Numbered from the stretch's first letter, positions 7,907 to 45,619 are shown. The stretch is 64,000 bases of DNA from an uncultured Candidatus Saccharibacteria bacterium (GCA_964513645.1 CAZENF010000001.1:200022-264021), one strand, 5' to 3'. The notes: generated by a model from the sequence alone, not told the origin. Numbers and translations: made by a program.

Positions 7907-7996
7907 TTTTCATATCATAACATTTTTTTTATTCTTGACAATAAGCGATAAATAAGCGATGATTTGCCATCAATGTTCTTTAAAATAAGGAGTAAA

Positions 7997-8572
7997 GTGG
8001 CTATCCAGATCCCCAAGAAGATCGGTAAGGAAAAGGTTGTCGGCCAGGTTTACGGCAAATCTCTTATCAGCCAGAACTATATCATGCCCCAGACCGGTCG
8101 AATAGAAGAATATGGAAAATTCAGAGGCAAACACCTTTCAGCTTTTATTCTTCCTGTCACCGAAGACAATATGATTGTTGCTATCAGACAATACCGGATG
8201 GGACCGGATGAAATAGTCCTTGAACTACCCGGCGGAAATATCAAACCGGACGAACCACCTGATATGGGAGCACGAAGAGAACTTCAGGAAGAAACCGGCT
8301 ATTTGGCCGGCACCATGGTATCTTTGTCGGGATGCAAGAAGGTATGCCTCGACCCGGCAAGTTCAGATATATATTTTTATCCTTTTCTGGCCTTGAACTG
8401 CAAGTACACCGACAGAAGGAATCTTGATGTGAACGAAGACATCGAGATAGTCCTAAAGTCATGGCTGGAATGGTTGGATGCCGTTTACAAGATCAGCTCT
8501 AACAGTTCCTACTCCATGCTGACAACCCTGCTCGCACTGCCCCACGTCCAGAAATTGGAAGCGTTCCGATGA
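7997..8572 (+). CDS. NUDIX hydrolase
   Basis: Nudix box GARRELQEETGY. The ORF is open from 7964, but AAGGAG (7987-7992) followed by an in-frame GTG at 7997 is the more likely start. Confidence 0.75.
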   Translation: MAIQIPKKIGKEKVVGQVYGKSLISQNYIMPQTGRIEEYGKFRGKHLSAFILPVTEDNMIVAIRQYRMGPDEIVLELPGGNIKPDEPPDMGARRELQEETGYLAGTMVSLSGCKKVCLDPASSDIYFYPFLALNCKYTDRRNLDVNEDIEIVLKSWLEWLDAVYKISSNSSYSMLTTLLALPHVQKLEAFR

Positions 8573-9534
8573 TAACCACGGAAATTTCACTTGAACTTTA
8601 CGGACGGATGTATCGGATCCGTAAATCCGAAGAAAAGATCATCGAAGAATATTTTAACGATGCCATGAAAACTCCAATGCATATGTCGATGGGTTCCGAA
8701 GCGATCGCAGCCGGTGTCTGCACCGCCTTAGACGACGCTGCCCAGATCTGGGGAACTTATCGGAGTCACGCGACATATCTTGCTCGGACCAAAGACGTGA
8801 ACGGTTTTTTCACGGAACTTTACGGCAAGGTTACTGGACCGGGAGGAGGCAAAGCAGGTTCGATGCATTTAGCCGACCCGGAACAAGGTTTGGTTATGGC
8901 TTCGGCTGTGGTTGCGACAAACATCTCACCGGCCTTAGGCGCCGCTTTTGCCAACAAAATTCTCAAAAATCATGATATCGCTGTTACCTTTTTTGGTGAC
9001 GGCGCCGTTGATGAAGGTGTTTTCTGGGAAAGCATCAATCTCGCTTCTGTCTTGAGTTTGCCAGTCCTGTTCGTCTACGAAGACAACGGTCTGGCTATTC
9101 ATACCTCGGCCAAAAGCCGGCATGGTTATGACAATATCGGAAATCTGATAAAACAATATGCCAACTGGCATTATCTCGAATACGGTGGAACAGACGTTGA
9201 AGAAATATTTCAATTGACCGCAAATGCTTATTTCGGCCAATTGATGCGCGGACCGGTTTTCTTGTCACTTAAATACTACCGCTATCTTGAACATGTCGGT
9301 GTCAATGAAGATTTTAAGGCCGGTTATCGAAGCCGCGAAGAATTTGAAAAGTGGCAAAAAATTGACCCTCTGACCGTTCAAAAGAACCGATTGACCGACC
9401 TTGGTCTTGCCAAAGAGGTTTCACGATTGGAGACAGAGATATTGAATCAGATAGAAGAGGCCGTTACCTATGCAAAAAGCAGCCCTTATCCCGAACCCGG
9501 AGCTTTGTACGAAGGAGTGTACGATGACGAATAA
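8569..9534 (+). CDS. TPP-dependent 2-oxoacid dehydrogenase E1 component, alpha subunit (PDH/acetoin-DH E1-alpha-like)
   Basis: 321 aa; TPP-binding GDGAVDEGVFWESINLA...LPVLFVYEDNGLAI. ATGA overlap with the upstream stop. Confidence 0.8.
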   Translation: MITTEISLELYGRMYRIRKSEEKIIEEYFNDAMKTPMHMSMGSEAIAAGVCTALDDAAQIWGTYRSHATYLARTKDVNGFFTELYGKVTGPGGGKAGSMHLADPEQGLVMASAVVATNISPALGAAFANKILKNHDIAVTFFGDGAVDEGVFWESINLASVLSLPVLFVYEDNGLAIHTSAKSRHGYDNIGNLIKQYANWHYLEYGGTDVEEIFQLTANAYFGQLMRGPVFLSLKYYRYLEHVGVNEDFKAGYRSREEFEKWQKIDPLTVQKNRLTDLGLAKEVSRLETEILNQIEEAVTYAKSSPYPEPGALYEGVYDDE

Positions 9535-10573
9535 CAGAGTTATCTCCTATGAAAAAGCCCTGAACGAAGCCATCAGTCAAGAAATGGCGGCTGATGAAAG
9601 AGTTTTTGTATACGGCCTCGATGTTGACGACCACAAACGGATATTCGGAACAACCGTAGGTTTGGTGCAAAAATTCGGTCCCGAAAGATGTTTCAGCACT
9701 CCCTTGTCTGAAGAGTCTCTGATGGGATTAGGCATCGGTGCCGCAGCTTCGGGCTTAAGACCGATAAACCTACACATCCGGATAGAGTTTTTGCTTTTGG
9801 CCCTGAATCAACTTATAAATATCGGCTCATCCCTCCGTTACGGAAGTAACGGAAAACTTTCAACTCCGATGGTTATAATCGGTATTATCGGCCGAGGCTG
9901 GGGACAAGGTTTCCAGCATTCAAAAAGCCTTCAGTCATTTTTTGCCCATATTCCGGGATTAAAAGTGATAATGCCCACTACCCCTTACGATATAAAAGGC
10001 ATGATGACATCGGCGATACAGGACAACAACATCGTCGTTTGTCTCCTTCACCGCTGGCTTTACTGGATAGAAGGCCATGTTCCGGAAACACAGTACAAAG
10101 TTCCGATAGGCATGAGCCGTATTCTGCGCGAAGGTTCCGACATAACCATTGTCGCTACATCCTGGATGAACATCGAAGCACATGATGCGGCCAATGTCCT
10201 GGCCAAAAGAAATGTCAGCGTCGAGATTATCGACGCACGGACAATTTCGCCTCTTGATTACAGCATGATAGTTCATTCGGTCAACCAGACCGGCCGGTGC
10301 ATCATCGCAGACTATGACTGGCTCAACTGCGGCTTCAGCGCCGAGGTTACAGCCAGAGTTTCAGAGCAATGCTTCGGTAAGCTCAAACTTCCGGTCGCCC
10401 GGATAGGATTTGCCGAGACACCCTGCCCGACGACCAGACCCCTTGAGAACATGTTCTATCCTGACGCCAAATCGATAATCAGAAAAGCCGAAAGAATGCT
10501 CGGTCTTTCTCCTGCCGATCTGTCCGAAGAGAAATTCCACACCTGGGAAAACAAATTCAAAGGACCTTTTTAA
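9524..10573 (+). CDS. TPP-dependent 2-oxoacid dehydrogenase E1 component, beta subunit (transketolase-like pyrimidine-binding and C-terminal domains)
   Basis: MTNNRVISYEKALNEAISQEMAADERVFVYG...TPLSEESLMGLGIGAAASGLRPI... The ORF is open from 9470, but the ATG at 9524 overlaps the alpha stop (ATGACGAATAA) and fits the canonical E1-beta N-terminus. Confidence 0.8.
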   Translation: MTNNRVISYEKALNEAISQEMAADERVFVYGLDVDDHKRIFGTTVGLVQKFGPERCFSTPLSEESLMGLGIGAAASGLRPINLHIRIEFLLLALNQLINIGSSLRYGSNGKLSTPMVIIGIIGRGWGQGFQHSKSLQSFFAHIPGLKVIMPTTPYDIKGMMTSAIQDNNIVVCLLHRWLYWIEGHVPETQYKVPIGMSRILREGSDITIVATSWMNIEAHDAANVLAKRNVSVEIIDARTISPLDYSMIVHSVNQTGRCIIADYDWLNCGFSAEVTARVSEQCFGKLKLPVARIGFAETPCPTTRPLENMFYPDAKSIIRKAERMLGLSPADLSEEKFHTWENKFKGPF

Positions 10574-10672: not shown

Positions 10673-12379
10673 TTGATAATTTTAGGGATGCTGACCTATT
10701 CTCACGATACGTCCGCCGCCATCTTAAAAGACGGCCGCGTATTGTTTGCCGCCGAAGAAGAAAGGTTCAACGGCGAAAAACATACCACAAAATTTCCGCA
10801 TAATGCGATCAAGGCATGCCTTGATTTCGCAAAGATCACGCTCGATGATGTGGACGTCATCTGCGTTCCCAACATCCCGATAATGAGCGTCCGTCTGCGC
10901 TTCATCCGGAACTGGTACCGCCATTTTCCCAAAGTAACGCCGAGGATGTTAGCTGAATCAAAATGGATAGACAGATTCATTTATATTGAACAGGATATCA
11001 GAGAAAATCTGAATTTCCAAAAAAAAATATTTTTCTGTCATCACCACCTCGCCCACATGGCAAGTGCTTATTACCTTTCCGGATTTTCGTCGAGCGCGCT
11101 TTTGAGCATCGACGGAGTTGGAGACATTGAAAGTCTGACAACCGGAGTTGCCGAAAACAACAAACTGAAGCTTTTCAAGAAAGACAGCGTCGAATGGCCT
11201 CACTCGATGGGTGTTCTATACACTTGTATCACGGATTATCTTGGCTTTAAGCGCCATTGCGATGAAGGCAAGGTCATGGGTCTTGCCCCTTATGGCAACA
11301 TCGAAACTTTTAGAAAGATATTCGAGAAAGTTGTTTTACTCGGTCCGCGCGGCAGATTTGCCCTCGACTATAAGTATTTCGATTATCCGTACATTCAAGG
11401 TTCAACAATGTCGGATGTTTTCAAAGAACTGTGCGGTCCGTCGAGACAAAAAGACGAACCGATCACCCAAAGGCACATGGATATCGCCGCGGCGGCGCAA
11501 TACATGACCGAGAAGGTCATGGTTAATTCAGCCCGGTATCTTCAAGAAAAAACCGGACAAACAAATCTTTCGATGGCCGGCGGCGTAGCGCTTAACTGTG
11601 TCGCTAACGGAAAAATCCTCACCGAAACACCTTTTAAGAATATCTTCATCCAGCCCGCGGCAAATGATTCGGGAGCTTCTCTCGGGGCCGCCCTTTATTA
11701 TCATTATCTGAAAAACAAGAACGCGGAACGTTACCGCCTGAACAATGCTTATCTGGGAAACGGATATGATAACACGGAAGTATTCAAAGCATTAATTTAT
11801 GCTAAAAATAAAGTTAATTTTGTAACCGGACCAAAAGATAAAATGAACCATTATATAGCACGGTTCCTGGCTAGCGGAAAAATAGTCGCCTGGTTCAACG
11901 GACGATTCGAATACGGCCCGAGAGCCCTCGGCAATCGCTCTATCATTACGGCACCGTTCCCGGCAGAAATGAAGGATATTCTAAACTCGCGAGTTAAACA
12001 CCGTGAATCATTCCGGCCTTTTGCTCCGGTTGTTCTCGAAGAAGACTGCGGTGAATATTTCGACAACATTCATATTTCACCCTATATGCTTCTGACCTAT
12101 GGTGTCAGACCTGAAAAAAAACACCAGGTTCCCGCAATCACCCACGTTGACGGAACGGCCAGAGTCCAGACAGTAAATGAAGAACAAAATCCTGACCTTT
12201 ATAACCTTATCAAAGAGTTCAAAACCCAAACCGGAATAGGTATCATTCTGAACACCTCATTCAATGTCATGGGTCAGCCGATAATCAATACCCCCGAAGA
12301 AGCCATTGAATGCTTCCTGGGTACGGATATCGACTATTTGGTCCTGAACGGAGAATTCCTTGTCTCGAAAGCTGCTTAG
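10673..12379 (+). CDS. NodU/CmcH-family O-carbamoyltransferase
   Basis: 568 aa; N-terminal ILGMLTYSHDTSAAILKDGRVLFAAEEERFN (Kae1/YgjD-like fold) and a C-terminal carbamoyltransferase domain. AAGGAGG Shine-Dalgarno before the TTG start. Confidence 0.85.
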   Translation: MIILGMLTYSHDTSAAILKDGRVLFAAEEERFNGEKHTTKFPHNAIKACLDFAKITLDDVDVICVPNIPIMSVRLRFIRNWYRHFPKVTPRMLAESKWIDRFIYIEQDIRENLNFQKKIFFCHHHLAHMASAYYLSGFSSSALLSIDGVGDIESLTTGVAENNKLKLFKKDSVEWPHSMGVLYTCITDYLGFKRHCDEGKVMGLAPYGNIETFRKIFEKVVLLGPRGRFALDYKYFDYPYIQGSTMSDVFKELCGPSRQKDEPITQRHMDIAAAAQYMTEKVMVNSARYLQEKTGQTNLSMAGGVALNCVANGKILTETPFKNIFIQPAANDSGASLGAALYYHYLKNKNAERYRLNNAYLGNGYDNTEVFKALIYAKNKVNFVTGPKDKMNHYIARFLASGKIVAWFNGRFEYGPRALGNRSIITAPFPAEMKDILNSRVKHRESFRPFAPVVLEEDCGEYFDNIHISPYMLLTYGVRPEKKHQVPAITHVDGTARVQTVNEEQNPDLYNLIKEFKTQTGIGIILNTSFNVMGQPIINTPEEAIECFLGTDIDYLVLNGEFLVSKAA

Positions 12380-12484: not shown

Positions 12485-13660
12485 GTGAACCATCCTTTCA
12501 AGTATCCCCTTGCTTCTGACACAATAGATGACGCTAACCTTGAAGAACTAATTTCCTGGTTCAAAACAAAACCCCAGCTGACCATGGGTGAAGTGACGAA
12601 AAAATACGAGAAAGTATGGTCTGAATGGGTTGGCAGAAGATCCGTTTTTGTTAATTCCGGTTCATCCGCTAATTTAGCGATGTATTCGGTCTTGGATTGC
12701 TCAAGCCAGCTGATGAACAAGAAAGTCATCGTTCCAAGCAATGGCTGGGCTACGACCATTGATCCCGCGATCCAGCTTGGATTTCAACCTTTGATGTGCG
12801 AAGCTGATCCTGACACATTCGGTCTCGACCTCGACCATCTCGAAGAATTGCTTGAAGAACACCGGCCGGCTACGGTTATGCTCGTTCATGCGCTTGGCGT
12901 TCCCCATAAAATGGATGAACTAATGGCGCTTAAAGAAAAATATGAATTCATCCTTCTGGAAGACGCCTGTGCTTCGGTCGGTTCAGCTTACAAAGGCAAG
13001 CGGGTGGGAACTTTCGGAGATATGTCGAGCTTTTCGACCTATTTCGGCCACCAATCCTCAAGCGTCGAAGGCGGCTTTATTTTTACCGACAACAAAGAGT
13101 TCTATAACATCCTCCGAATGATAAGAAGCCACGGCTGGGCTAAAGACCTCGATGAAGAAACCTACAACAACCATTTCAGCAAATACAACATCGACCCCGC
13201 TCATCGGCCTTTTGCATTTTTTTACCCGGGATATAACATCCGACCGACAGATATTCAGGCAAAGATAGGTCTTGGGCAATTTGAAAAATTCGAATGGGTG
13301 AGAAAGAACCGCATCCGGAATCATGAACTCTATAAAACCCTGCTCCGAAATGATTTCGGCGTTCAAAAGTATTCATCCGATGAAGTTGAGGTTTGCAGCA
13401 TCAGTTTTGCGATCTTGGCCAAAGATCCCGAAGAACGGGATAAGGTTGTGCATGCCCTGAATAACAACAGTATCGAGACCAGACTTTATTCGGCGGCCAA
13501 TCTTGGCCTGCACCCTTTCTGGTATGACAATTTCGGAAAATTCCTGGCACCAAACGCAACTCGGTTATACAGCTGCGGCTTGTTCCTGCCGAACCATCCT
13601 GATCTTGAAAGGTCAGACATAGAATTCATTTCAAAAGTTGCACTGGGGGCAAAAAAATGA
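12485..13660 (+). CDS. DegT/DnrJ/EryC1 family enzyme with His replacing the PLP-lysine: PMP-dependent sugar 3-dehydratase-like (ColD/E1 (RfbH/DdhC) type)
   Basis: 391 aa. SFSTYFGHQSSSVEGG aligns gap-free with FAFYPNKQMTTGEGG (45620 ORF) and [16 protein letters not shown] (56839 ORF), placing H where both paralogs have the Schiff-base K. N-terminus LASDTIDDANLEEL..TMGEVTKKYEKVWSEW.G...V.VNSGSSANL resembles RfbH/ColD. AGGGAG Shine-Dalgarno before the GTG start. Confidence 0.65.
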   Translation: MNHPFKYPLASDTIDDANLEELISWFKTKPQLTMGEVTKKYEKVWSEWVGRRSVFVNSGSSANLAMYSVLDCSSQLMNKKVIVPSNGWATTIDPAIQLGFQPLMCEADPDTFGLDLDHLEELLEEHRPATVMLVHALGVPHKMDELMALKEKYEFILLEDACASVGSAYKGKRVGTFGDMSSFSTYFGHQSSSVEGGFIFTDNKEFYNILRMIRSHGWAKDLDEETYNNHFSKYNIDPAHRPFAFFYPGYNIRPTDIQAKIGLGQFEKFEWVRKNRIRNHELYKTLLRNDFGVQKYSSDEVEVCSISFAILAKDPEERDKVVHALNNNSIETRLYSAANLGLHPFWYDNFGKFLAPNATRLYSCGLFLPNHPDLERSDIEFISKVALGAKK

Positions 13661-14607
13661 GAAAGATCAAGGTCCTGATCACCGGAGGCGCGGGGTATAT
13701 AGGTTCAGTATTGGTTCCTAAATTGTTAGAAACCGGCATTTACAAAATAGCGGTCATCGACAACTTCATGTACCAAGAACCTTCCCTGGTCAATGTTTCC
13801 GACAATCCCGATCTGACCATTCTAAATTCCGATATCAGGGATTATAAACTGGTTAATTTTATAGCCCCAAAATCGGACTATATTTTACCATTGGCCTGCC
13901 TGACCGGTGCACCCATTTGCGACCGTTATCCCAATCAGGCCAGAGAAGTAATAGTGGACGCATTAAAAAATATGATAAGTTCGCTAAAACCCAACCAGAG
14001 ACTGATCTATCCTACAACCAACAGCGGCTACGGGATCGGTAGCGACGATATCTATTGCGATGAGAATAGTCCGCTTAACCCGATATCACATTACGGCCGT
14101 TTGAAAGTCGAAGCCGAAAAAATGATATTGGAAAGAAAAGGAATCGCTCTTAGACTGGCCACCGTTTTCGGTGTCAGCCCGAGAATGAGATTAGACCTCC
14201 TTGTGAACGACATGACCTTCGAGGCGGTTAAGAAGGGTCATATAAAACTTTATGAACCGCATTTCAAAAGAAACTTCATCCACGTCAGAGATATTGCCGA
14301 CGCTTTTGTTTTTTGTCTGAACAATTTTGAAAAAATGCAAGGACAAGTATACAACGTCGGCCTCAGCGAAGCGAATATAAGCAAAATGGACCTGTGCCTG
14401 ATGATAAAAGAGCGGGTACCGAAACTCGAAATAACAACCGATGATTCAAAGAAGGATCCGGACCAGCGCAACTATATTGTCAATAACGAAAAGATCGAAG
14501 CTCTCGGTTTTAAAGCGAAGGTTTCCCTTAAAACCGGAATTCAGGAACTGATAAAATATTACGAGATGCTCGATTATTCCCAAAGACAAAGATTTTCGAA
14601 CATTTAA
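13657..14607 (+). CDS. NAD-dependent epimerase/dehydratase (extended SDR)
   Basis: 316 aa; VLITGGAGYIGS Rossmann motif. Paralog of 34051..34980 (shared VIDNxM, SPRxRLDLxxND, TFIHVxD). Confidence 0.8.
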   Translation: MRKIKVLITGGAGYIGSVLVPKLLETGIYKIAVIDNFMYQEPSLVNVSDNPDLTILNSDIRDYKLVNFIAPKSDYILPLACLTGAPICDRYPNQAREVIVDALKNMISSLKPNQRLIYPTTNSGYGIGSDDIYCDENSPLNPISHYGRLKVEAEKMILERKGIALRLATVFGVSPRMRLDLLVNDMTFEAVKKGHIKLYEPHFKRNFIHVRDIADAFVFCLNNFEKMQGQVYNVGLSEANISKMDLCLMIKERVPKLEITTDDSKKDPDQRNYIVNNEKIEALGFKAKVSLKTGIQELIKYYEMLDYSQRQRFSNI

Positions 14608-15146: not shown

Positions 15147-17222
15147 GTGAGCAAAAAAATCACTGTCGGCCTGTGCCAGATAAATGCCAGCTTCTCGGGG
15201 GTAAGCTACCTGCCCTACTCGGTAGGACTCCTTGAAGCCCACGCCCGTAAAAACCTTCCTGAAATTGATAAATACGAGTTCATGCCTCCGATCTTCGCGA
15301 GAGAATCGGTAGATTCGGCGGTTAAAAAACTTCTGCCGTGTGACGTGGTTTATATCAGTCTTTACGTCTGGAACAACAATCTGGCCCTGATGATTGCCAA
15401 AGAATTAAAAAAGCTCAAGCCCGAGGTTGTCATTGTGGTAGGCGGACCCCATGTCCCCGATAAATACAAATCTCACACCCAGAACAAACAAATAACCCCG
15501 GTTTTTATCGGAATAAAAAATTCAAAATCAACTCGAACCCCGCCTGAACTTTTAAGAACAGAGACCTATCTGCGCGAAAATCCTTATATCGATATTGCCG
15601 TCCACGGTGAAGGCGAAAGAGTTTCAACAATTCTTTTGCAGAACCTTCACGGTGACTGGAGTAAAATACCGTCCATCAGCTACCTGGATAAAGAGGGTTA
15701 TATTGTACAGACCGAAAAAATTTCGCGTCTCAAAGAGCTCGATGAGATACCTTCTCCTTATCTTGAAGGCACCTTCGACTCCCTTATCAAGTCCAACCCT
15801 GACACTAAATGGATAACCGTCTGGGAAACAAACCGCGGCTGTCCTTTCTCCTGCACATTCTGCGACTGGGGTTCCGCGATCGCCTCAAAGGTGTATAAAT
15901 GGGAACTTGAGCGGGCCTACCGCGAAATGGATTGGTTCGCCGCCCATCAGATAGAATTTATTTTTCTGGCTGATGCAAATTTCGGCATCCTGAACCGCGA
16001 CATTGATATCGCAAAATACTGCGCCAGGACCAGAGAATTAACTGGCTATCCGAAAGCGATCACGGTCTCGAACACCAAGAACGCGACCGACCGTTCATAT
16101 CAGGTCCAGAAAATATTTGCCGAAGCCGGCCTTGCCGCCGGAGCTTCGCTCTCAATGCAGTCTCTTGACCCTGGGACTTTGAAAGATATCAAAAGGGACA
16201 ACATCAGTCTCGACTCTTACAACGAGATCCAACAAAGAATGAAACAGGACGGCGTCGCCTCTTTCACAGACATTGTCATCGGTCTGCCCGGTGAAACATA
16301 CGAAACTTTCGCCAATGGTGTCGATCAACTTATCCGGAACGGTCTCCATGACCGGATCCTATTCTATGACCTGACCATTCTGCCCAACGCCGAAATGGCC
16401 GACCCGGGATACCGAAAAAAGTTCGGAATGGAAACCGTTAACGCCAAGACGATAAACATCCACGGCTCACGCAAAGAAATTCAGAATGACGTTCCTGAAT
16501 TCCAGGAAGTCGTCGTCGCAACGGCCGCAATGCCTCGCCCTGACTGGGCAAGGGTCAAAGCTTTCAGCTGGACGGCTGCTTTCCTTCATTTCGACAAGAT
16601 ACTTCAGATACCGCTGGTCCTGATGCATGAGCTGGCCGGCATAAAATACCGTGAGCTTATCGAATTACTTTCCGAAGCAAAATTCGGAAACCCCCGAAAA
16701 TTCCCGACCCTGAATAAGATACATGGCTTTTTCATTGAAAAAGCACGTTCTATCCAGGCAGGCGGCGAGGAGTTCTGCCATTCCAAGGAACACCTCGACA
16801 TGTGGTGGCCGTCAGACGAGAAAATACTCATCGAGCTGGCAACCAATGACGAACTTCCGGGTTTTTACGAAGAAGCATATTTTGCTCTGAAAAATATTCT
16901 GAAAATATCAGGCAAGACCGAATTCGACAATGCTCTTAGAGAATCAGTGATACTTAACGAAGCCCTGCTTAAACTCCCGTTCCTGAACGGCACAGTTAAA
17001 GTAAAGCTTGAACATAACATCTGGGAATTTTACAAGGCCGCGGTCAGGTCGGAACCGATACCGCTTGTAAAACAAAGATCGGTTATCAGTATCAACCGTG
17101 ACATTGAAAAATGGAATTCATGGAACGACTGGTGCCGATTCGTTGTATGGTACGGCAGCAAACAGAGCGCATATCTGTACGGAAATAAATCGGTCCGGGT
17201 ACAAATTGCCGGACATTTCTAA
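15147..17222 (+). CDS. Cobalamin-binding (class B) radical SAM enzyme with a roughly 300-aa C-terminal extension
   Basis: 691 aa; radical SAM CxxxCxxC as ETNRGCPFSCTFCDWG, preceded by a B12-binding-type N-terminal Rossmann region (VVIVVGGPHV). Paralog of 24610..26760. Confidence 0.8.
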   Translation: MSKKITVGLCQINASFSGVSYLPYSVGLLEAHARKNLPEIDKYEFMPPIFARESVDSAVKKLLPCDVVYISLYVWNNNLALMIAKELKKLKPEVVIVVGGPHVPDKYKSHTQNKQITPVFIGIKNSKSTRTPPELLRTETYLRENPYIDIAVHGEGERVSTILLQNLHGDWSKIPSISYLDKEGYIVQTEKISRLKELDEIPSPYLEGTFDSLIKSNPDTKWITVWETNRGCPFSCTFCDWGSAIASKVYKWELERAYREMDWFAAHQIEFIFLADANFGILNRDIDIAKYCARTRELTGYPKAITVSNTKNATDRSYQVQKIFAEAGLAAGASLSMQSLDPGTLKDIKRDNISLDSYNEIQQRMKQDGVASFTDIVIGLPGETYETFANGVDQLIRNGLHDRILFYDLTILPNAEMADPGYRKKFGMETVNAKTINIHGSRKEIQNDVPEFQEVVVATAAMPRPDWARVKAFSWTAAFLHFDKILQIPLVLMHELAGIKYRELIELLSEAKFGNPRKFPTLNKIHGFFIEKARSIQAGGEEFCHSKEHLDMWWPSDEKILIELATNDELPGFYEEAYFALKNILKISGKTEFDNALRESVILNEALLKLPFLNGTVKVKLEHNIWEFYKAAVRSEPIPLVKQRSVISINRDIEKWNSWNDWCRFVVWYGSKQSAYLYGNKSVRVQIAGHF

Positions 17223-19471: not shown

Positions 19472-19600
19472 GATCCGTCATTTAAAAGATGCTGACCCAT
19501 ATTACAGCGCCTTAGGAACTAAATCAAATCATGTTTGACGAACCAATTTTTTGATAGTATAATCTGTCCAGTTATTTTTACAAAAAGGATATATCAATTC

Positions 19601-20407
19601 ATGACCGAACTTCTTAAACTTGAAGAACGAGCAAGGCGAGTAAGAAAAGATATATTAGATATGGCTTATAATGCGAGTGATTCACATATCGGCTGCGCAA
19701 TGTCCGTGGTTGAAATACTTGTCGGCCTCTATTTTAAAGTTATGAATATAAACCCTAATGATCCACGCTGGCAAGAACGTGACCGCTTCGTCTTAAGCAA
19801 AGGCCATGTCGCATCGGCATTATATTCGGTTTTGTCCGAACGGGAATTTTTCCCCAAGAACTTTTTGTCTGAATTCGCCAGGAATGGAAGCTTTTTATCA
19901 AGCCATGTTGACGGTTCCGCTCTTCCCGGAGTTGAGACCTCGGGCGGTTCCGGAGGTCATGGTCTGTCGCTTGGCGCAGGGATGGCCCTTGCTGCCAAGA
20001 TGGATAATTCAAAACGCCGGATATTTGTTCTGTGCGGAGACGGAGAACTTCAGGAAGGTTCGGTCTGGGAAGCGGCGATGTTCGCAGCTTCAAGGAAATT
20101 GAACAACTTAACCCTTGTCATAGATCGAAACCATTATCAAACCTGGGATGATGTTGACAATGTTGTTTCTCCTGAACCTTTGGATAAAAAATTCGACGCT
20201 TTTGGATGGGAAACCGAAAGAGTTGAAGGTCACAGATTTGTCGCCCTGTGTCATGTGCTTAGCAGATATACCGATAGACCGCACGCTGTTATCGCTGAAA
20301 CGGTCAAAGGTAAAGGAATATCATTCATGGAAAACAAAGGAGAATGGCACAATGGCGTCCTCACCAAAGAACAATATGAAGCCGCGGTAAAGGAGGTATC
20401 CTACTAA
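19601..20407 (+). CDS. Transketolase, N-terminal (TPP-binding) subunit of a split transketolase
   Basis: GHVASALYSVL...GSGGHGLSLGAGMALA...VLCGDGELQEGSVWEA. The ORF is open from 19535, but ATG 19601 preceded by AAGGA is the likely start. Confidence 0.8.
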   Translation: MTELLKLEERARRVRKDILDMAYNASDSHIGCAMSVVEILVGLYFKVMNINPNDPRWQERDRFVLSKGHVASALYSVLSEREFFPKNFLSEFARNGSFLSSHVDGSALPGVETSGGSGGHGLSLGAGMALAAKMDNSKRRIFVLCGDGELQEGSVWEAAMFAASRKLNNLTLVIDRNHYQTWDDVDNVVSPEPLDKKFDAFGWETERVEGHRFVALCHVLSRYTDRPHAVIAETVKGKGISFMENKGEWHNGVLTKEQYEAAVKEVSY

Positions 20408-21315
20408 TGCGAAACGCGGTTATCGAAGCTCTATATCAGGAGGCCGTAAAAGATCCCCGGATCTGTTTTTTTACCGGCGATTTCCAGCATGTCAGAGAAA
20501 GAGATTTCATCGCCATGGGACAAAGATACCAGAACGCCGGAATGGCCGAACAGAATATAATCGGTCTCGCTGCAGGTGCAGCATTAAGCGGAAAAAAAGT
20601 TTTCGTTTATTCCATAATCCCCTTCATAACTCTCCGTTGTCTTGAACAGATAAAAATGGATGTTTGCGTCCACAATGTAGACGTAACTATCATCGGCGGC
20701 GGAGCGGGTTTTACTTACGGTACCTGCGGTCCCAGCCATCTTGCAATCGAAGATATTGCAGTAATGCGTGCCTTGCCCAACATGAAAATAGTCTGCCCTT
20801 CCGGCCCGCGGGAAGCGGTCCAGCTTTTGAGTCAGGTCATCAAAGCCAGTGGCCCGACATATTTACGCCTGAACAAAAGAGGAGAAAAGGATCTACACGA
20901 TCATCTCCCGATAATGGGACATGGGGTGGTTATCCGTCCCGGTTCTGACATAACAATAATCGCAACCGGCACCATTGTGGCAGAGGCGCTTGAAGCCGCA
21001 ACAATACTTTCCGCTTCAGGTATTTCAACCGAAGTGGTCAATATGCACACGATAAAACCGATTGACAAAAACCTTATCCTTAAGAGGGTATACACAAAGA
21101 GACTGATCTGTACCCTTGAGGAACACAGCGTCATCGGCGGCTTGGGCAGCGCCGTATCTGAAATTATCGCCGGAAAAAATATCAGAGCGGGTTTTATGTC
21201 ATTTGGCGTAAAGGATAAGTGGCCAGATTTTGTTGGAGACCAGAAATATCTCCGAAAAGGAACAGGTCTCAACGGCGAATCAATCGCATCAGCCATCAAA
21301 GAAAGTTACGTGTAA
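20407..21315 (+). CDS. Transketolase, C-terminal (pyrimidine-binding and C-terminal domain) subunit
   Basis: 302 aa; FFTGDFQHV...GMAEQNIIGLAAGAALSGKKVFVYSIIPF. Start overlaps the upstream stop (TAATG). Confidence 0.8.
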   Translation: MRNAVIEALYQEAVKDPRICFFTGDFQHVRERDFIAMGQRYQNAGMAEQNIIGLAAGAALSGKKVFVYSIIPFITLRCLEQIKMDVCVHNVDVTIIGGGAGFTYGTCGPSHLAIEDIAVMRALPNMKIVCPSGPREAVQLLSQVIKASGPTYLRLNKRGEKDLHDHLPIMGHGVVIRPGSDITIIATGTIVAEALEAATILSASGISTEVVNMHTIKPIDKNLILKRVYTKRLICTLEEHSVIGGLGSAVSEIIAGKNIRAGFMSFGVKDKWPDFVGDQKYLRKGTGLNGESIASAIKESYV

Positions 21316-22155
21316 ATGAACATTCCTCTTCTTTTCCAGAACTCTGCTCCGGAAGAAAGAGAATATTTTACAAAGCTCGCACATTCTCATCAAAAAGAAC
21401 TCAAGCTTCATGAGAGCTACGGACTTTGGGAAAAAGAACCTTCGGGAAAAACCTGGACCAATGTTACGGAACATTGCCTGATAGAAGCCGCCCGTTCAAA
21501 AGTATTATCGAGCTGGCTCAATTTGCCTCAAGACATACGTGATTCAATGGAATCAGCCGCAGTTGTGCATGATTTTTACAAAAAAAGAGAAATAGAACTG
21601 GTGCATGAAGATATAAAAGCCGGAAGAACCGGAAAAGACGGCACCCTCAAAGCCTCCGACGAATCTGAAAAAATCATGAGTAGCTTGGGATTTGACGATT
21701 TCGTCGTCTCACTGGTTGAATGCGTCGGGGCGACCCAGATGAATCTTCATCGGATGAAAAGAATGCTTGACCTTAAATTCAGGAGTGATGAAGACCTGGC
21801 CCATCTGGCCATTCACTACATTGATGATTACACCATTCATAGTTGCTGGGCAAAACCGGCGGAAATAAAAGAAGGAAAGAAAAAAAATGATGCCGACAGA
21901 AGGAACGAAAAAAATATTCAGAATCCTGACTATAAAAAAATGGGGGCTGAAAGTACAAAGCTCAACCAAAATTCACCGTATTTCAAAGGTATGAGCATGT
22001 ATGAATCAGCTGTGTATGTCGACCATCTTATAGAAAATGAATTTGCCGGGATAATCAGAAATCACGGAATAACTATCGGTGACCCGATAGATCTTCCGTG
22101 GCTTGTAGACAATTACTTAAGAAATAAAATAAATAAAAAACGCGACCTACATTAG
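21316..22155 (+). CDS. HD-domain phosphohydrolase-like protein
   Basis: 279 aa; H (TEHCL) ... HD (AAVVHDFYK) at HD-domain spacing. Confidence 0.45.
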   Translation: MNIPLLFQNSAPEEREYFTKLAHSHQKELKLHESYGLWEKEPSGKTWTNVTEHCLIEAARSKVLSSWLNLPQDIRDSMESAAVVHDFYKKREIELVHEDIKAGRTGKDGTLKASDESEKIMSSLGFDDFVVSLVECVGATQMNLHRMKRMLDLKFRSDEDLAHLAIHYIDDYTIHSCWAKPAEIKEGKKKNDADRRNEKNIQNPDYKKMGAESTKLNQNSPYFKGMSMYESAVYVDHLIENEFAGIIRNHGITIGDPIDLPWLVDNYLRNKINKKRDLH

Positions 22156-22626
22156 GCCGCGTATTTTTTTTATGATCGCACTCGTTGATATCGGAAATTC
22201 TCGATGGAAAATTTCTAAAGGCACATCCCACCTCTTTGAAAGGCCCCGCCGTTTTTCTATGTCACCATCATCATTAACAGCCCAAACATCCGGTTTAAAA
22301 TATAAGAATATCTCTTCGATTGGAAGGAGCCAGTGCTCACCTTTTTTAGAAGGATTTGAAAAGAACGAATAATCTACCGCTCTCATGGCATCAACCACCC
22401 TTAAGCGCAGATCCTGACCCAGGATAGGGAGCTGAGGGTTTTTATTATTTCTGATATCCTCATCTGTGCCTACGGCAACAACAAGGATATCGCCTAAACT
22501 TTTACAATTCTCAAGAAAAATGACATGGCCGGCATGAAATAAGTCAAAAGTCCCGGAACAAAAAACTATTTTTTTATCCGGACGCTTTTCCCTGAGTTTT
22601 GAAAGATCGTCATAACAAATGACCAT
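22147..22626 (-). CDS. Stand-alone cytidylyltransferase-like nucleotidyltransferase (second paralog)
   Basis: 159 aa; KKIVFCSGTFDLFHAGHVIFLE, collinear with 7409..7906. Confidence 0.75.
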   Translation of the reverse strand: MVICYDDLSKLREKRPDKKIVFCSGTFDLFHAGHVIFLENCKSLGDILVVAVGTDEDIRNNKNPQLPILGQDLRLRVVDAMRAVDYSFFSNPSKKGEHWLLPIEEIFLYFKPDVWAVNDDGDIEKRRGLSKRWDVPLEIFHREFPISTSAIIKKIRGLM

Positions 22627-22749: not shown

Positions 22750-23550
22750 ATGAACTTAGGCCTTAAAGGCAAGACAGCCCTTGTTACCGGCTCAAGCCAA
22801 GGCATCGGCAAAGCCTGCGCCCTAGCACTGGCCCGTGAAGGATGCAATGTTATTTTGTGTGCCAGAGACATGGATAAATTAAAAAGAACTCAGAAACAAA
22901 TTTCCAATTTGTACCCAACCGTCAACGTAAGCTACGACCATGTTGATGTAACTGACCGTGAAAGGATAAAATATTTCATCAGCCATATCGGAGCTCTTGA
23001 TATCCTGGTCAACAATGCCGGCGGCTCTTCGGATAAAGAAGTTAAACTTTTTGACATCCCCGAAGAGGAATGGATACATATGTTCAAGCTTAATACCTTG
23101 AGCGCGCTTTGGTTCACCGAATTCTGTGTTCCCCTTCTTGAAAGATCGTCCCAGCCGAGAGTAATCAATATCGGCACCAAGGCATCGCATGAACCTGGTT
23201 ATACCAATGCACCTTACGCCACGGCTAAATCAGGTCTTGATTACCTGAACAAGAGAATGTCTAACGAACTTGCCCCTAAAGGTATCCCAGTTAATCTTAT
23301 CGGGCCACATATGCTTACCTCTGAAACCTGGGAAAGAAAACTTGAACAGAAAGCCAAAGATAACAATGTTTCGGTCGATGAAGCGCGGGCGATGACCCTC
23401 AAAGAAATACTCAAGCAAATACCGATGGGCCGGCAAGGCACGACAGAAGATGTCGCCAACCTTGTCGTGTTCCTTGCCTCCGCCCAGGCAAACTTCATTA
23501 CCGGTGGTTATTTCCCTCTCGACGGGGGAAATTCCCGGTATCGTTACTAA
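22750..23550 (+). CDS. Short-chain dehydrogenase/reductase (classical SDR)
   Basis: 266 aa; TGSSQGIGKA, NNAG, and catalytic YATAKSGL (YxxxK). Confidence 0.85.
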   Translation: MNLGLKGKTALVTGSSQGIGKACALALAREGCNVILCARDMDKLKRTQKQISNLYPTVNVSYDHVDVTDRERIKYFISHIGALDILVNNAGGSSDKEVKLFDIPEEEWIHMFKLNTLSALWFTEFCVPLLERSSQPRVINIGTKASHEPGYTNAPYATAKSGLDYLNKRMSNELAPKGIPVNLIGPHMLTSETWERKLEQKAKDNNVSVDEARAMTLKEILKQIPMGRQGTTEDVANLVVFLASAQANFITGGYFPLDGGNSRYRY

Positions 23551-23559
23551 GGAGAACCG

Positions 23560-24516
23560 ATGAGATACAGGCGGCTTGGAAAAACCCTCGTTGTTTCAGA
23601 AATAGGATTCGGCGGCTGGGGCATCGGCGGCGTGACTACCGGTGCTACATCGTACGGAGCGACCGACGACAGAGAATCTGTCAGGACGCTTCAAAAAGCT
23701 TTCGATAACGGCATAAGCTATTACGATACAGCGGGTGTTTATGGCCACAGCGAAGAACTGATAGGCCGGACATTCAAAGATTGCCGAGGACAAGTTGTCA
23801 TCGGCACCAAGGTCGGATTTCATGACCATCTCGAACCACAAGATTTTACCAAAGAAAACATCAGCGCTTCGCTTGAAAAAAGTCTGAAAAATATGGGGAC
23901 CGACTATGTTGATCTTTATCAGCTTCATAACCCTGACAACCCGGATATCACAAAGACCCTGAACGATGATGTTGTCAGTACTTTGTTAAGATTAAAAGAG
24001 AAAGGTCTGACCAGGGCTTTAGGTGTCTCGGTTAAATCACCCCAAAGCGGATTGGTTGCTCTGGGATACGGAATTTTTGATTCTGTCCAAACAAATTTGA
24101 GCATGCTCGACCAAAGAGCATCCGAGGCCGGCCTCCTCCAAAAAGCCCATGAAAAGGATGTCGGCATTATCGGCCGGACGCCTTTAAACTTCGGCTTCCT
24201 GACCGAAAACGGAAAAACCATGAGTCTCGACTTCGGACCCAGAGACCACCGGTCTTTGTGGAAAAGACCTCAACTCGAAGCCTGGCAAAAAGGCGCAAAA
24301 ATATTCTCTGAAGTAATACCGGAAGAACCCTTGGCAATTCTGGCTTTGCGCTTTTGTCTCGGTTTTCCGGAAGCTTCAACGATTATTCCAGGACTGATAA
24401 CGGTAAATGATGTTTTACAAAATGTTGTCGCCTCAACCAGAGAAAAATTGGGTTCAGACAAATTCGAAAAGATCCGACAGATATATCTCGAAAACAAAGG
24501 ATTTTTCGCCAAATGA
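23560..24516 (+). CDS. Aldo/keto reductase
   Basis: 318 aa; YRRLGKT...SEIGFGGWGIGG, YYDTAGVYGHSEELIG, DLYQLHNPD. Confidence 0.85.
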   Translation: MRYRRLGKTLVVSEIGFGGWGIGGVTTGATSYGATDDRESVRTLQKAFDNGISYYDTAGVYGHSEELIGRTFKDCRGQVVIGTKVGFHDHLEPQDFTKENISASLEKSLKNMGTDYVDLYQLHNPDNPDITKTLNDDVVSTLLRLKEKGLTRALGVSVKSPQSGLVALGYGIFDSVQTNLSMLDQRASEAGLLQKAHEKDVGIIGRTPLNFGFLTENGKTMSLDFGPRDHRSLWKRPQLEAWQKGAKIFSEVIPEEPLAILALRFCLGFPEASTIIPGLITVNDVLQNVVASTREKLGSDKFEKIRQIYLENKGFFAK

Positions 24517-29176: not shown

Positions 29177-29291
29177 ACTGCAAAATAAAAACCGTTACGA
29201 AAAGGACTGTTTTTTGTTATATATCCTTGATTGACAATGTAGATTTTTAATGATATTGTCTCGCACAAGCACTTTACCAATTGAGGATCTG

Positions 29292-45616: not shown

Positions 45617-45619
45617 CCC

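What the first reader, a model, noticed from the sequence alone, without database searches (positions are those of the whole stretch)
15147..17222. Three cobalamin-dependent radical SAM enzymes in one glycan island, two of them long paralogs with a conserved C-terminal extension
ORFs 15147..17222 (691 aa, CPFSCTFCDWG) and 24610..26760 (716 aa, CPFSCTYCDWGG) are clear paralogs. They are collinear from the HGEGERV/B12 region through a roughly 300-aa C-terminal domain that ends in the shared ...W..W....VWY...AYLYG.K... segment. A third, shorter copy (58078..59565, [10 protein letters not shown]) lies next to the ArnB/T/C-like module. Class B radical SAM enzymes usually C-methylate unactivated carbons (GenK/GenD1, Fom3) or perform other radical rearrangements (OxsB). 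Three in a sugar locus, with an extra C-terminal domain of unknown function, imply unusual C-methylated or rearranged sugars.
Basis: partly seen in the sequence, partly recalled or inferred. Interest (0 to 1): 0.6.

Follow-up and report, generated by a model that had tools for sequence, protein, structure and literature searches.

The report
TokK-like B12 methylases in glycan loci
Two intact paralogous enzymes in this sugar-biosynthesis island belong to large, uncharacterised sister families of the vitamin-B12-dependent radical methylases TokK and CysS, and across many phyla they sit beside the same heptose, thiamine-enzyme and reductase genes, which points to an undescribed carbon-methylated surface sugar.

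Summary
ORFs 15147-17222 (A, 691 aa) and 24610-26760 (B, 716 aa) are full-length paralogs (38% identity). ORF 58078-59565 (C) is a third radical SAM protein with a B12-binding domain. The interpretation needs correcting in three places.

(1) The "C-terminal extension of unknown function" is the third domain of TokK and CysS, which forms their substrate channel. This is shown by whole-protein and domain-only fold searches.

(2) A and B are not a local oddity. They represent two sister subfamilies found in at least 567 species-level genomes. The TokK/CysS hallmark residues are essentially invariant, but TokK's substrate-anchoring arginine is replaced.

(3) C is not a copy of A/B (23% identity) and belongs to a different, very conserved family.

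Across phyla the A-type gene is followed directly by an aldo-keto reductase in 47 of 71 loci. It is usually accompanied by a two-subunit thiamine enzyme, a heptose-7-phosphate-type kinase and a 4,6-dehydratase.

The best reading is cobalamin-dependent radical C-methylation, possibly iterative, of a nucleotide-activated, heptose-derived keto or acyl-branched sugar before ketoreduction. The substrate and the site of methylation are inferred, not shown. No characterised member exists and no literature on it was found. A cultured Azospirillum carries the cassette.

The parts
15147..17222 (+). rSAM A (691 aa): A-type TokK/CysS-like cobalamin-dependent radical SAM enzyme with a Cbl-binding domain, a radical SAM core and a C-terminal third domain
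   Evidence: ORF. Pfam PF04055 45.7 bits and PF02310 31.1 bits. TokK E 8.8e-91. AF2 pLDDT 83.7. Foldseek TokK TM 0.79/0.83.
15369..15371 (+). Codon of Trp75 of A, equivalent to TokK Trp76 and CysS Trp75 (hydrophobic residue under the cobalt)
   Evidence: Alignment. W in 235/235 homologs. Role described in papers read.
15465..15563 (+). Insertion of about 33 aa in the Cbl-binding domain of A (aa 107-139), basic, predicted disordered
   Evidence: pLDDT below 50 at 108-130. Present in all but one of 116 B-type sequences but only about 20 of 119 A-type.
15840..15869 (+). Cluster motif CPFSCTFC plus D240-W241 of A (W241 = TokK Trp215)
   Evidence: Cysteines 235/235, W 234/235.
16482..17219 (+). C-terminal third domain of A (aa 446-691), ending in W662, W668, AYLY675-678, GH689-690
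   Evidence: Domain-only AF2 model pLDDT 86.9. Foldseek hits only TokK (TM 0.56) and CysS (0.45-0.49). Motif conservation.
24610..26760 (+). rSAM B (716 aa): B-type sister subfamily of A
   Evidence: 38% identity to A. TokK E 2.4e-68. Own subfamily of about 710 aa. Sister clade in the NJ tree.
23560..24516 (+). Aldo-keto reductase immediately upstream of B; the family's most constant partner
   Evidence: Pfam/NCBIfam. Immediate downstream neighbour of the A-type rSAM in 47/71 loci. AKR precedes the B-type rSAM in L089 and L090.
22750..23550 (+). Classical short-chain dehydrogenase (generic SDR; acetoin/butanediol-reductase-type models are among many similar-scoring matches)
19535..21315 (+). 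Split transketolase-like ThDP enzyme (N subunit 19535-20407, C subunit 20407-21315)
   Evidence: Pfam. NCBIfam transketolase 242 and 165 bits, below cut-offs. GDG...N ThDP motif at aa 168.
8569..10573 (+). PDH-E1 alpha (8569-9534) and beta (9470-10573)-like ThDP enzyme pair
   Evidence: Pfam E1_dh, Transket_pyr, Transketolase_C. NCBIfam below cut-offs. ThDP motif at aa 143. Found near the rSAM in 65-67% of loci.
10673..12379 (+). Carbamoyltransferase (NodU-like)
12485..14607 (+). DegT-family PLP enzyme (RfbH/PseC-like, 12485-13660) and SDR epimerase/dehydratase (13657-14607) directly upstream of A
   Evidence: Same order in L002/L006.
965..1537 (+). GmhA, sedoheptulose-7-phosphate isomerase
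   Evidence: TIGR00441 212.8 bits against cut-off 209.45.
5715..6698 (+). HddA-like GHMP sugar kinase (heptose-7-phosphate kinase type)
   Evidence: NCBIfam HddA 151 bits, below cut-off. Nearest PDB entries 4usk, 3k85, 4n3o. Found in 36/45 loci.
6776..7378 (+). RmlC-like 3,5-epimerase
7409..7906 (-). RfaE-domain-II-like heptose-1-phosphate nucleotidyltransferase
7964..8572 (+). NUDIX hydrolase
   Evidence: Recurs in L005, L006 and L091.
22147..22626 (-). Second RfaE-domain-II-like nucleotidyltransferase
26821..27429 (+). Small methyltransferase-like protein after B
   Evidence: Weak RrnaAD hit.
29250..30266 (+). NDP-sugar 4,6-dehydratase-like SDR (GMD/LegB/RmlB-like)
   Evidence: Homolog near the rSAM in 34/45 loci.
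58078..59565 (+). rSAM C (495-502 aa): separate B12-binding-domain radical SAM family, not a close paralog of A/B

Best explanation
A and B are cobalamin-dependent radical SAM C-methyltransferases of the TokK/ThnK/CysS/KedN5 type. One SAM methylates cob(I)alamin. A second SAM, cleaved at the [4Fe-4S] cluster held by C232/C236/C239, gives a 5'-deoxyadenosyl radical that removes a hydrogen from an unactivated sp3 carbon. The substrate radical then takes the methyl group from methylcobalamin. The substrate differs from the pantetheinylated antibiotic precursors of the characterised relatives. It is most likely a nucleotide-activated, heptose-derived 4-keto or acyl-branched sugar. The proposed route starts from sedoheptulose-7-P and uses GmhA, an HddA-like kinase, a nucleotidyltransferase and a 4,6-dehydratase. 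A two-subunit thiamine enzyme (E1 alpha/beta or split transketolase) then adds a two-carbon unit, and the rSAM methylates a carbon next to the carbonyl, once or repeatedly. The neighbouring aldo-keto reductase (or a DegT enzyme in module A) then converts the ketone. The C-terminal domain is the clade's substrate-channel domain, here re-tuned for the new substrate. Shown here: fold, cofactor motifs, clade membership, cassette conservation. Inferred: methyl transfer, the sugar substrate, the order of steps, the position of methylation and whether it is iterative.
For: Clade. TokK E 8.8e-91 and CysS E 2.2e-57 are the only strong PDB sequence matches; B behaves the same way. The best NCBIfam match is the KedN5 family at 255.7 and 216.4 bits, against 62 or less for any other family. 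In the 274-column core, A-type to TokK identity is 42%, compared with 35% between TokK and CysS.

Fold. AF2 pLDDT is 83.7. Foldseek gives TokK TM 0.79/0.83 over 717 columns and CysS 0.68/0.74, while OxsB and TsrM score 0.46 or less when normalised to the query. The C-terminal domain alone matches only TokK and CysS.

Hallmarks. W75 (= TokK W76), the three cluster cysteines and W241 (= TokK W215) are conserved in 234-235 of 235 sequences. A hydrophobic lower-axial residue is typical of the radical methylases (review read).

A different substrate. TokK Arg280, which binds the carbapenam carboxylate, is Ser/Thr/Asn in all 235 sequences.

Context. An AKR is the immediate same-strand downstream neighbour in 47/71 loci. 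Of 45 loci with at least 6 kb on each side, 38 hold a ThDP-enzyme subunit, 36 the GHMP kinase, 34 a GMD-like dehydratase and 25 a DegT. The same cassette is seen in Nitrospirota, Ca. Yanofskybacteria, a cultured Azospirillum plasmid and an archaeal MAG.

Heptose origin. GmhA is above its curated cut-off, and the kinase is nearest to PDB entries named as heptose-phosphate kinases.

Precedent for the logic. The E1-like Pau11/Pau12 (AviB1/B2 homologs) are proposed to install a C-4 acetyl branch, and the AKR Pau7 was shown to reduce it (PMC4753412). YerE/YerF and ErwE/ErwF follow the same ThDP-then-reductase scheme (PMC9306805).
Against: No member of either subfamily has been characterised, and no paper in the searchable library links them to glycans. 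Scores to the KedN5 model are far below its cut-off of 700. Every characterised member of the clade whose substrate is documented in the papers read here (TokK/ThnK, CysS) uses a pantetheine-linked substrate, so a sugar nucleotide would be a first. Known long acyl branches on bacterial sugars come from longer alpha-keto-acid donors, not from methylation. In the window itself A is not next to an AKR, and gene order differs between the A and B modules. The co-occurrence counts have no formal background control, and SDR matches are generic. The MAGs nearest to this window are labelled Saccharibacteria/Patescibacteria, a group not known to make cobalamin (my own knowledge), so cofactor supply is unexplained.
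Confidence: 0.55

Rival explanations
1. A and B are methylases, but the substrate is not a sugar nucleotide. As for TokK, ThnK and CysS, it is a pantetheine-, CoA- or carrier-protein-bound small acyl or aryl group, for example an unusual N-acyl substituent that is later attached to an amino sugar.
For: The characterised clade members documented in the papers read here (TokK/ThnK, CysS) act on pantetheinylated substrates held by the C-terminal and Cbl domains. A DegT enzyme sits near the rSAM in 56% of loci and an ATP-grasp protein is present in the window, so an amino sugar that could be acylated is plausible.
Against: No acyl carrier protein, phosphopantetheinyl transferase, CoA ligase, NRPS or PKS domain was found among the window genes scanned. 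The constant partners are nucleotide-sugar and ThDP enzymes plus an AKR. The TokK carboxylate anchor Arg280 is lost.
Confidence: 0.1
2. A and B use the cluster and cobalamin for a non-methylating radical reaction on the keto-sugar (rearrangement, ring contraction, cyclisation or epimerisation), as OxsB or BchE do.
For: Class-B radical SAM enzymes include non-methylases (review). The tight pairing with a reductase would also suit a rearrangement that produces a new carbonyl.
Against: The nearest relatives by sequence and fold are methylases only, and OxsB reaches TM 0.46 at most. The lower-axial residue is an invariant Trp, as in TokK and CysS, not the hydrophilic arrangement of OxsB or TsrM. 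BchE and HpnJ models score 62 bits or less against 256 for KedN5.
Confidence: 0.12
3. The cassette does not build a heptose-derived sugar. It builds an activated polyol or ketol phosphate in the manner of the MEP pathway or of CDP-polyols (ThDP carboligase, reductase, GHMP kinase, cytidylyltransferase), and the rSAM methylates that small alcohol.
For: The ThDP enzyme, reductase, GHMP kinase and PF01467 nucleotidyltransferase resemble the DXS/DXR/IspD/IspE logic (my own knowledge). The transketolase C subunit also scores on DXS models (140 bits). A TagF-like glycerophosphotransferase hit lies at 35084-36178.
Against: GmhA is above its cut-off, and the kinase's best matches are heptose-phosphate kinases, with mevalonate kinase far weaker. 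The nucleotidyltransferases score best on RfaE domain II. 4,6-dehydratase-like, RmlC-like and DegT enzymes are typical of NDP-hexose or NDP-heptose tailoring.
Confidence: 0.1
4. A and B methylate after assembly, acting on the lipid-linked oligosaccharide or the finished polymer rather than on the nucleotide sugar.
For: GenK and GenD1 methylate assembled pseudo-oligosaccharides rather than NDP-sugars (my own knowledge). The window is rich in glycosyltransferases.
Against: The conserved neighbours are soluble nucleotide-sugar tailoring enzymes, not glycosyltransferases or flippases. No membrane segment is evident in the model.
Confidence: 0.08

Closest known systems
TokK / ThnK (carbapenem C6 sequential methylases; PDB 7KDX, 7KDY)
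   Same: Three-domain architecture with the whole-chain fold superposable (TM 0.79/0.83). The Trp under the cobalt and the Trp after the cluster motif are conserved. About 42% identity in the radical SAM core. The C-terminal domain has the same fold.
   Different: The C-terminal domain is only about 15% identical. The substrate anchor Arg280 is replaced by Ser/Thr. The genes lie in nucleotide-sugar cassettes of many phyla rather than in actinomycete beta-lactam clusters. A and B carry an insertion of about 26-33 aa in the Cbl domain.
CysS (cystobactamid iterative O-methyl to alkyl methylase; PDB 9N1B-D)
   Same: Same three domains and lower-axial Trp. E 2e-57. TM 0.68/0.74.
   Different: About 35% core identity. 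By my hand-mapping of the alignment, CysS His371, proposed to hold SAM for Cbl methylation, aligns with Tyr407 of A, so that detail does not transfer. The substrate class differs.
NCBIfam NF033712, KedN5 family methylcobalamin-dependent radical SAM C-methyltransferases
   Same: Best-scoring curated family for A and B.
   Different: Scores of 255.7 and 216.4 bits against a cut-off of 700, so they are not members. A PGAP-named KedN5-family protein on a Streptomyces plasmid is about 29% identical.
GenK / GenD1 / Fms7 (B12-radical SAM C-methylases of aminoglycoside sugars)
   Same: Functional analogy: cobalamin-dependent radical methylation of unactivated sugar carbons (review; my own knowledge).
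   Different: They are not the nearest relatives by any search run here. They act on assembled aminoglycosides in actinomycete secondary metabolism. No direct sequence comparison was possible, because no GenK sequence or model was available in the tools.
ThDP-dependent acyl-branching systems: AviB1/B2 and Pau11/12 with the AKR Pau7; YerE/YerF; ErwE/ErwF
   Same: An E1 alpha/beta-type or other ThDP enzyme plus a ketoreductase acting on an NDP-4-keto-deoxy sugar. The cassette here has the same pair of activities.
   Different: None of those systems contains a radical SAM enzyme. Their branch length is set by the alpha-keto-acid donor. The starting sugar here appears to be a heptose. Direct homology to Pau7, Pau11 or Pau12 was not tested.
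For protein C: AprD4 (PDB 6FD2), MgmA/QCMT (PDB 9CCB), and the PhpK, HpnJ and BchE families
   Same: B12-binding-like domain plus radical SAM core, about 450-500 aa, without the TokK third domain.
   Different: All curated models score far below their cut-offs (117 bits or less against 480-600). C's own family is 66-82% identical across several candidate phyla and lies in glycosyltransferase-rich loci. Its reaction is unknown.

Membership tests
Class B (cobalamin-dependent) radical SAM enzymes | Radical SAM core with a CxxxCxxC motif for the [4Fe-4S] cluster | tested here: met
   PF04055 above cut-off in A, B and C. Motifs at A 232, B 257 and C 204. Cysteines invariant in 235 homologs.
Class B (cobalamin-dependent) radical SAM enzymes | N-terminal Rossmann-type cobalamin-binding domain | tested here: met
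   PF02310 scores 49.8 in C (above the 32.1 cut-off), 31.1 in A and 23.9 in B (below it). For A and B the domain is confirmed by alignment to the TokK Cbl domain and by fold. There is no DxHxxG in A or C, which fits the base-off binding mode of this class.
Class B (cobalamin-dependent) radical SAM enzymes | Actual binding of cobalamin and methyl transfer via methylcobalamin | not testable with these tools
   Needs purified protein and cofactor analysis.
TokK/ThnK/CysS-type three-domain methylases | Trp on the lower axial face of cobalamin (TokK W76, CysS W75) | tested here: met
   A W75 aligns with TokK W76. W in 235/235 sequences.
TokK/ThnK/CysS-type three-domain methylases | Trp directly after the cluster motif (TokK W215) | tested here: met
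   A W241. 234/235 sequences.
TokK/ThnK/CysS-type three-domain methylases | Clade-specific C-terminal third domain | tested here: met
   Whole chain TM 0.83 normalised to the 658-residue TokK chain. The domain alone matches only TokK (TM 0.56, probability 1.00) and CysS.
TokK/ThnK/CysS-type three-domain methylases | Pantetheinylated substrate with its TokK anchoring residue (Arg280) | tested here: not met
   The position is Ser, Thr or Asn in all 235 sequences. No carrier-protein genes in the window.
TokK/ThnK/CysS-type three-domain methylases | Sequential (iterative) methylation | not testable with these tools
   Requires enzyme assays.
NCBIfam NF033712 KedN5 family | Whole-protein score at or above the curated cut-off of 700 bits | tested here: not met
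   A 255.7 bits, B 216.4 bits, C 17.4 bits.
GenK/GenD1-type sugar C-methylases | Sequence membership in their subfamily | not tested
   No GenK or GenD1 model or sequence was available in the libraries used. They did not appear among the PDB or NCBIfam matches.
E1-type ThDP acyl-branching plus AKR reduction (AviB1/B2, Pau11/12, Pau7) | Two-subunit E1-like ThDP enzyme with an intact ThDP motif, an AKR, and a route to an NDP-4-keto sugar in the same locus | tested here: met
   E1 alpha/beta Pfam hits. GDG...N motifs. AKR. 4,6-dehydratase-like SDR.
E1-type ThDP acyl-branching plus AKR reduction (AviB1/B2, Pau11/12, Pau7) | Orthology to Pau11/Pau12/Pau7 and transfer of an acetyl unit from pyruvate to the sugar | not tested
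PhpK (TIGR04479), AprD4 (NF033070) and HpnJ (TIGR03471) families, considered for protein C | Score at or above the curated cut-off | tested here: not met
   117.2 against 600, 82.6 against 500 and 112.2 against 577.6.

The most novel reading that the evidence does not exclude
The A and B families are iterative C-alkylating enzymes for cell-surface sugars. Like TokK and CysS, they would add one to three methyl groups in succession, here to the thiamine-installed side chain or the deoxy-heptose tail of a nucleotide sugar. This would create ethyl-, isopropyl- or longer C-branched higher sugars that have not been described. It would occur in hundreds of species across many phyla, including CPR bacteria that (as far as I know) cannot make cobalamin and would have to obtain it from their hosts or community in order to decorate their surface.
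Probability: 0.2. Interest if true: 0.8.

Novelty: new variant of a known kind. Interest (0 to 1): 0.55.

Why it matters
Cobalamin-dependent radical SAM methylases are the only known catalysts that join a methyl group to an unactivated sp3 carbon. In the papers read here, the characterised enzymes of the TokK/CysS clade work on antibiotic precursors. If these two large sister families do the same chemistry on nucleotide sugars, this type of enzyme would move from rare secondary metabolism into mainstream surface-glycan biosynthesis. It would also predict a class of C-methylated or C-alkylated higher sugars that structural glycobiology has not reported, and supply new enzymes for carbohydrate C-H alkylation. 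The constant rSAM-AKR-ThDP-kinase cassette gives a defined set of proteins to reconstitute, and a cultured Azospirillum strain gives a place to test it genetically. In CPR bacteria it would also tie surface-glycan synthesis to scavenged vitamin B12.

Tried and rejected
(1) A scan of reference genomes with peptides of A itself found nothing, so the window's genome is not a species representative. The alignment-based scan worked.

(2) A look-up of the window's own contig returned only short Logan contigs, so the context had to be annotated by Pfam batches.

(3) I looked for a cobalamin riboswitch or any other Rfam family in the window and found none.

(4) I looked for phage copies and found none.

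(5) I tested whether the 1,000-1,090 aa relatives are fusions to a pathway partner, which would have been Rosetta-stone evidence. They are not; the extra length is an intein.

(6) I tried to map CysS His371/His617 (the proposed SAM-for-cobalamin site) onto the invariant near-terminal His690. By my hand-mapping of the alignment His371 aligns with Tyr407, and His617 could not be aligned, so I make no claim.

(7) The S. cattleya megaplasmid hit, possibly a thienamycin-cluster enzyme such as ThnK, carries no annotation in the plasmid collection, so its identity was not confirmed.

(8) Five literature searches for this family or gene combination in glycans gave nothing relevant.

(9) I rejected the reading that the C-terminal domain is a novel fold, that A/B arose by a recent local duplication (each has its own deep subfamily), and that C is a truncated copy of A/B.
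Full report
**The observation**

The three ORFs are present as described. A (15147-17222, 691 aa) and B (24610-26760, 716 aa) align over their entire lengths, with 38% identity and E 7e-180. Each has one CxxxCxxC motif. Pfam finds the radical SAM domain above its cut-off in all three proteins. It finds the B12-binding domain above its cut-off only in C; A scores 31.1 bits and B 23.9 bits against a cut-off of 32.1. C (58078-59565) is only 23% identical to A over the shared core (E 9e-6). It is a member of the same superfamily class, not a shorter copy.

**What A and B are**

Against all PDB sequences, A has two strong matches: TokK (E 8.8e-91, A residues 19-516) and CysS (E 2.2e-57). The next best matches have E values of 6e-4 or worse. 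B gives the same two strong matches and nothing else. Among NCBI's curated families the KedN5 family of methylcobalamin-dependent C-methyltransferases is by far the best, at 255.7 and 216.4 bits. It remains well below its 700-bit cut-off. HpnJ, BchE, PhpK and all other families score 62 bits or less.

An AlphaFold2 model of A built on a 23-sequence alignment is confident (pLDDT 83.7, pTM 0.86). It superposes on TokK along the whole chain: TM 0.79 normalised to the query and 0.83 normalised to the 658-residue TokK chain. CysS comes next at 0.68/0.74. OxsB and TsrM reach 0.46 at most when normalised to the query.

In the PDB this domain matches only TokK (TM 0.56, 210 columns, 15% identity, probability 1.00) and CysS (TM 0.45-0.49). 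Nothing else exceeds 0.27.

The "C-terminal extension of unknown function" is therefore the third domain of the TokK/CysS clade. According to the crystallographic papers, this domain forms the substrate channel together with the other two domains (bioRxiv 10.1101/2021.07.10.451909; PMC12846815).

**Hallmark residues**

The TokK paper singles out Trp76 under the cobalt and Trp215 after the cluster motif as shared by TokK, ThnK and CysS but not by other studied methylases. In A these are W75 and W241. In an alignment of 235 A-type and B-type sequences, W75 and the three cluster cysteines are present in all 235 and W241 in 234.

A 2026 review notes that radical methylases keep a hydrophobic residue under the cobalt, whereas OxsB and TsrM have hydrophilic ones (PMC12931638). 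This argues for methylation and against an OxsB-type rearrangement.

By contrast TokK Arg280, which binds the carbapenam carboxylate, is Ser, Thr or Asn in every sequence. The substrate therefore differs.

**How widespread the families are**

A has 5,727 database relatives with E of 1e-5 or better among the candidates scored. The top 120 are almost all 654-694 aa, cover the full query and are about 50% identical. B heads its own subfamily of about 710 aa; the only named members are from Ca. Yanofskybacteria.

In a 274-column core, identities are as follows:
- A-type to A-type: 63%
- B-type to B-type: 66%
- A-type to B-type: 46%
- A-type to TokK: 42%
- TokK to CysS: 35%

A simple neighbour-joining tree makes A-type and B-type reciprocally monophyletic sisters. 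They are old paralogs, not a local duplication.

A scan of one genome per species found at least 567 genomes with a relative. The 80 best span the following groups:
- Patescibacteria/Saccharibacteria-labelled MAGs, which are the nearest (74% and 69%)
- Elusimicrobia, Nitrospirae, Nitrospinae, Planctomycetes, Verrucomicrobia, Acidobacteria, Gemmatimonadetes, Omnitrophota and Poribacteria
- a cyanobacterium, a spirochaete and Marinimicrobia
- many Alpha- and Betaproteobacteria
- a Methanoperedens archaeon

A profile of the C-terminal domain alone finds 835 clusters (at 50% identity) among 1.84 billion representatives. In the full-length hits among the best 150 listed, the domain lies at the end of 630-720 aa proteins.

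**Genomic context**

The window is one large glycan island. Upstream of and between the paralogs lie the following genes:
- GmhA, above its curated cut-off
- an HddA-like GHMP kinase whose nearest solved relatives include entries named as heptose-phosphate kinases
- two RfaE-domain-II-like nucleotidyltransferases
- an RmlC-like epimerase and a NUDIX hydrolase
- a PDH-E1 alpha/beta-like pair and a split transketolase, both with intact ThDP motifs
- a carbamoyltransferase
- an RfbH/PseC-like PLP enzyme
- several SDRs, including a 4,6-dehydratase-like one
- an aldo-keto reductase directly before B

The closest MAG keeps both paralogs in the same order.

I compared the window proteins with all ORFs in the 80 fetched loci. 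The AKR is the immediate same-strand downstream neighbour of the A-type gene in 47 of 71 loci. Among 45 loci with at least 6 kb on each side, 38 contain a ThDP-enzyme subunit, 36 the kinase, 34 a GMD-like dehydratase, 34 the AKR and 25 a DegT enzyme.

The same cassette appears in Ca. Nitronereus thalassa and in Ca. Yanofskybacteria, where the AKR precedes the B-type gene. It also appears on plasmid p2 of the cultured Azospirillum sp. TSA2s. There PGAP annotates GDP-mannose 4,6-dehydratase, transketolase, NUDIX hydrolase, "radical SAM protein" and aldo/keto reductase.

**Mechanism proposed**

The following is shown: the cofactor-binding architecture, membership of the TokK/CysS/KedN5 clade, and a conserved partnership with a heptose-nucleotide pathway, a ThDP carboligase and a ketoreductase.

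The following is inferred. The enzymes methylate an unactivated carbon of a nucleotide-activated, heptose-derived 4-keto or acyl-branched sugar, and the AKR then reduces the ketone. In module A of the window a DegT enzyme would act on the ketone instead.

There is direct precedent for the ThDP-then-reductase logic. The E1-like Pau11/Pau12 (AviB1/B2 homologs) are proposed to add a C-4 acetyl branch, and the AKR Pau7 was shown in vitro to reduce it (PMC4753412). YerE/YerF and ErwE/ErwF follow the same scheme (PMC9306805).

A carbon next to a carbonyl is also what TokK attacks: C6 of the carbapenam lies next to the beta-lactam carbonyl. That makes the acetyl methyl or a ring carbon flanking the 4-keto group a reasonable target. 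Because TokK and CysS are iterative, repeated methylation is possible but untested.

**Rival readings**

Four rivals remain open: a pantetheine- or carrier-bound substrate, as in the characterised relatives; a non-methylating radical reaction; an MEP-like polyol pathway instead of a heptose; and action after glycan assembly. Each is weighed in the rival list. None fits the conserved neighbours and the hallmark residues as well as the main proposal, but none is excluded.

**Protein C**

C has a clear B12-binding domain and radical SAM core but no third domain. Its nearest structures are AprD4, a diol dehydratase, and MgmA/QCMT, a methylase. All curated families score far below their cut-offs. 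Its own family is strikingly conserved, at 66-82% identity across the 119 non-self hits listed; the named ones are from Taylorbacteria, Yanofskybacteria, Omnitrophica and Elusimicrobia. It lies in glycosyltransferase-rich loci.

Its neighbours in the window are a DegT aminotransferase, a PMT_2-type GT-C and a polyprenyl-phosphate-sugar-type GT2. These resemble the Arn system in logic only. The reaction C catalyses cannot be assigned.

**Novelty and interest**

The fold and the chemistry type are known. What is new is two large, uncharacterised sister subfamilies with a changed substrate anchor, fixed in a conserved nucleotide-sugar cassette across many phyla. I found no literature on this. I rate it a new variant of a known kind and a good, testable lead, not a surprise: tens of thousands of class-B radical SAM enzymes still lack a function, and B12-dependent methylation of sugars is known from the aminoglycosides.

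**Limits**

No enzyme activity, cofactor content or glycan structure is available. The co-occurrence counts lack a formal background model, and the SDR labels are generic. The tree is a simple distance tree that uses TokK and CysS fragments taken from the alignments. The taxonomic origin of the window is inferred only from the labels of the nearest MAGs.

Noticed in passing
P0372, P0376, P0379, P0382, P0396 (family relatives, not in the window): Five 1,008-1,088 aa relatives carry an intein, with a LAGLIDADG or other homing-endonuclease domain, inserted inside the CxxxCxxC cluster motif. At least two sites are used: before the second Cys (P0372, P0379) and before the third Cys (P0382, P0396). 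In P0379 and P0396 a cluster-ligating cysteine follows the intein's terminal HN and would be the +1 splice nucleophile.
   Followed up: partly
window 15465-15563 (A aa 107-139) and about 25015-25092 (B aa 136-161): A basic, low-confidence insertion of 26-33 aa in the cobalamin-binding domain. It is present in all but one of 116 B-type sequences but only about 20 of 119 A-type sequences (the nearest relatives of A). TokK and most A-type proteins lack it.
   Followed up: partly
window 58078-59565; loci L086-L088: The family of rSAM C is unusually conserved (66-82% identity; named members from Taylorbacteria, Yanofskybacteria, Omnitrophica and Elusimicrobia) and lies in GT4-rich glycan loci. Its function is unknown.
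   Followed up: partly
window 40028-48728: A complete nonulosonic-acid module: CMP-transferase, GFO/IDH/MocA oxidoreductases, NeuB synthase, hydrolysing 2-epimerase, ATP-grasp ligase, DegT aminotransferase and a PglF/PseB-type dehydratase.
   Followed up: no
window 37200-38765: A HisF-HisH fusion (imidazole glycerol phosphate synthase-like). In glycan loci this is usually linked to acetamidino-sugar formation (my own knowledge).
   Followed up: no
L081 (Ca. Methanoperedens MAG): An archaeal MAG carries an A-type rSAM (44% identity) together with the GHMP kinase (63% identity), a SIS isomerase, a split transketolase and a GMD-like dehydratase. This suggests transfer of the whole cassette between domains, or a binning error.
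   Followed up: no
L089, L090 (Ca. Yanofskybacteria and a related metagenome contig): Next to the B-type rSAM lie a further 432-aa radical SAM gene, a PAPS-synthase fusion and a sulfotransferase. L090 also has a 626-aa B12-radical SAM gene. This hints at sulfated, heavily tailored glycans in CPR bacteria.
   Followed up: no
whole window; contigs of 318,882, 62,472, 306,736 and 112,303 bp: Contigs of the same lengths recur in the hit lists of the A, B and C families (two in all three lists, two in the B and C lists). The co-occurrence of the three families therefore appears to recur, and the named relatives are CPR lineages. These organisms are not known to synthesise cobalamin (my own knowledge), so three B12-type enzymes in one island imply cofactor scavenging. 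The taxonomy of the window itself was not verified.
   Followed up: partly
window 17307-18814: Two overlapping ORFs of unknown function (190 and 324 aa) directly after A have no Pfam match. They are conserved at 60-70% identity only in the closest MAG and are rare elsewhere.
   Followed up: no
window 27439-29176: A GT11 (alpha-1,2-fucosyltransferase family) gene and a PhyH-type Fe(II)/2-oxoglutarate dioxygenase follow module B. The latter is another possible sugar-tailoring oxygenase.
   Followed up: no
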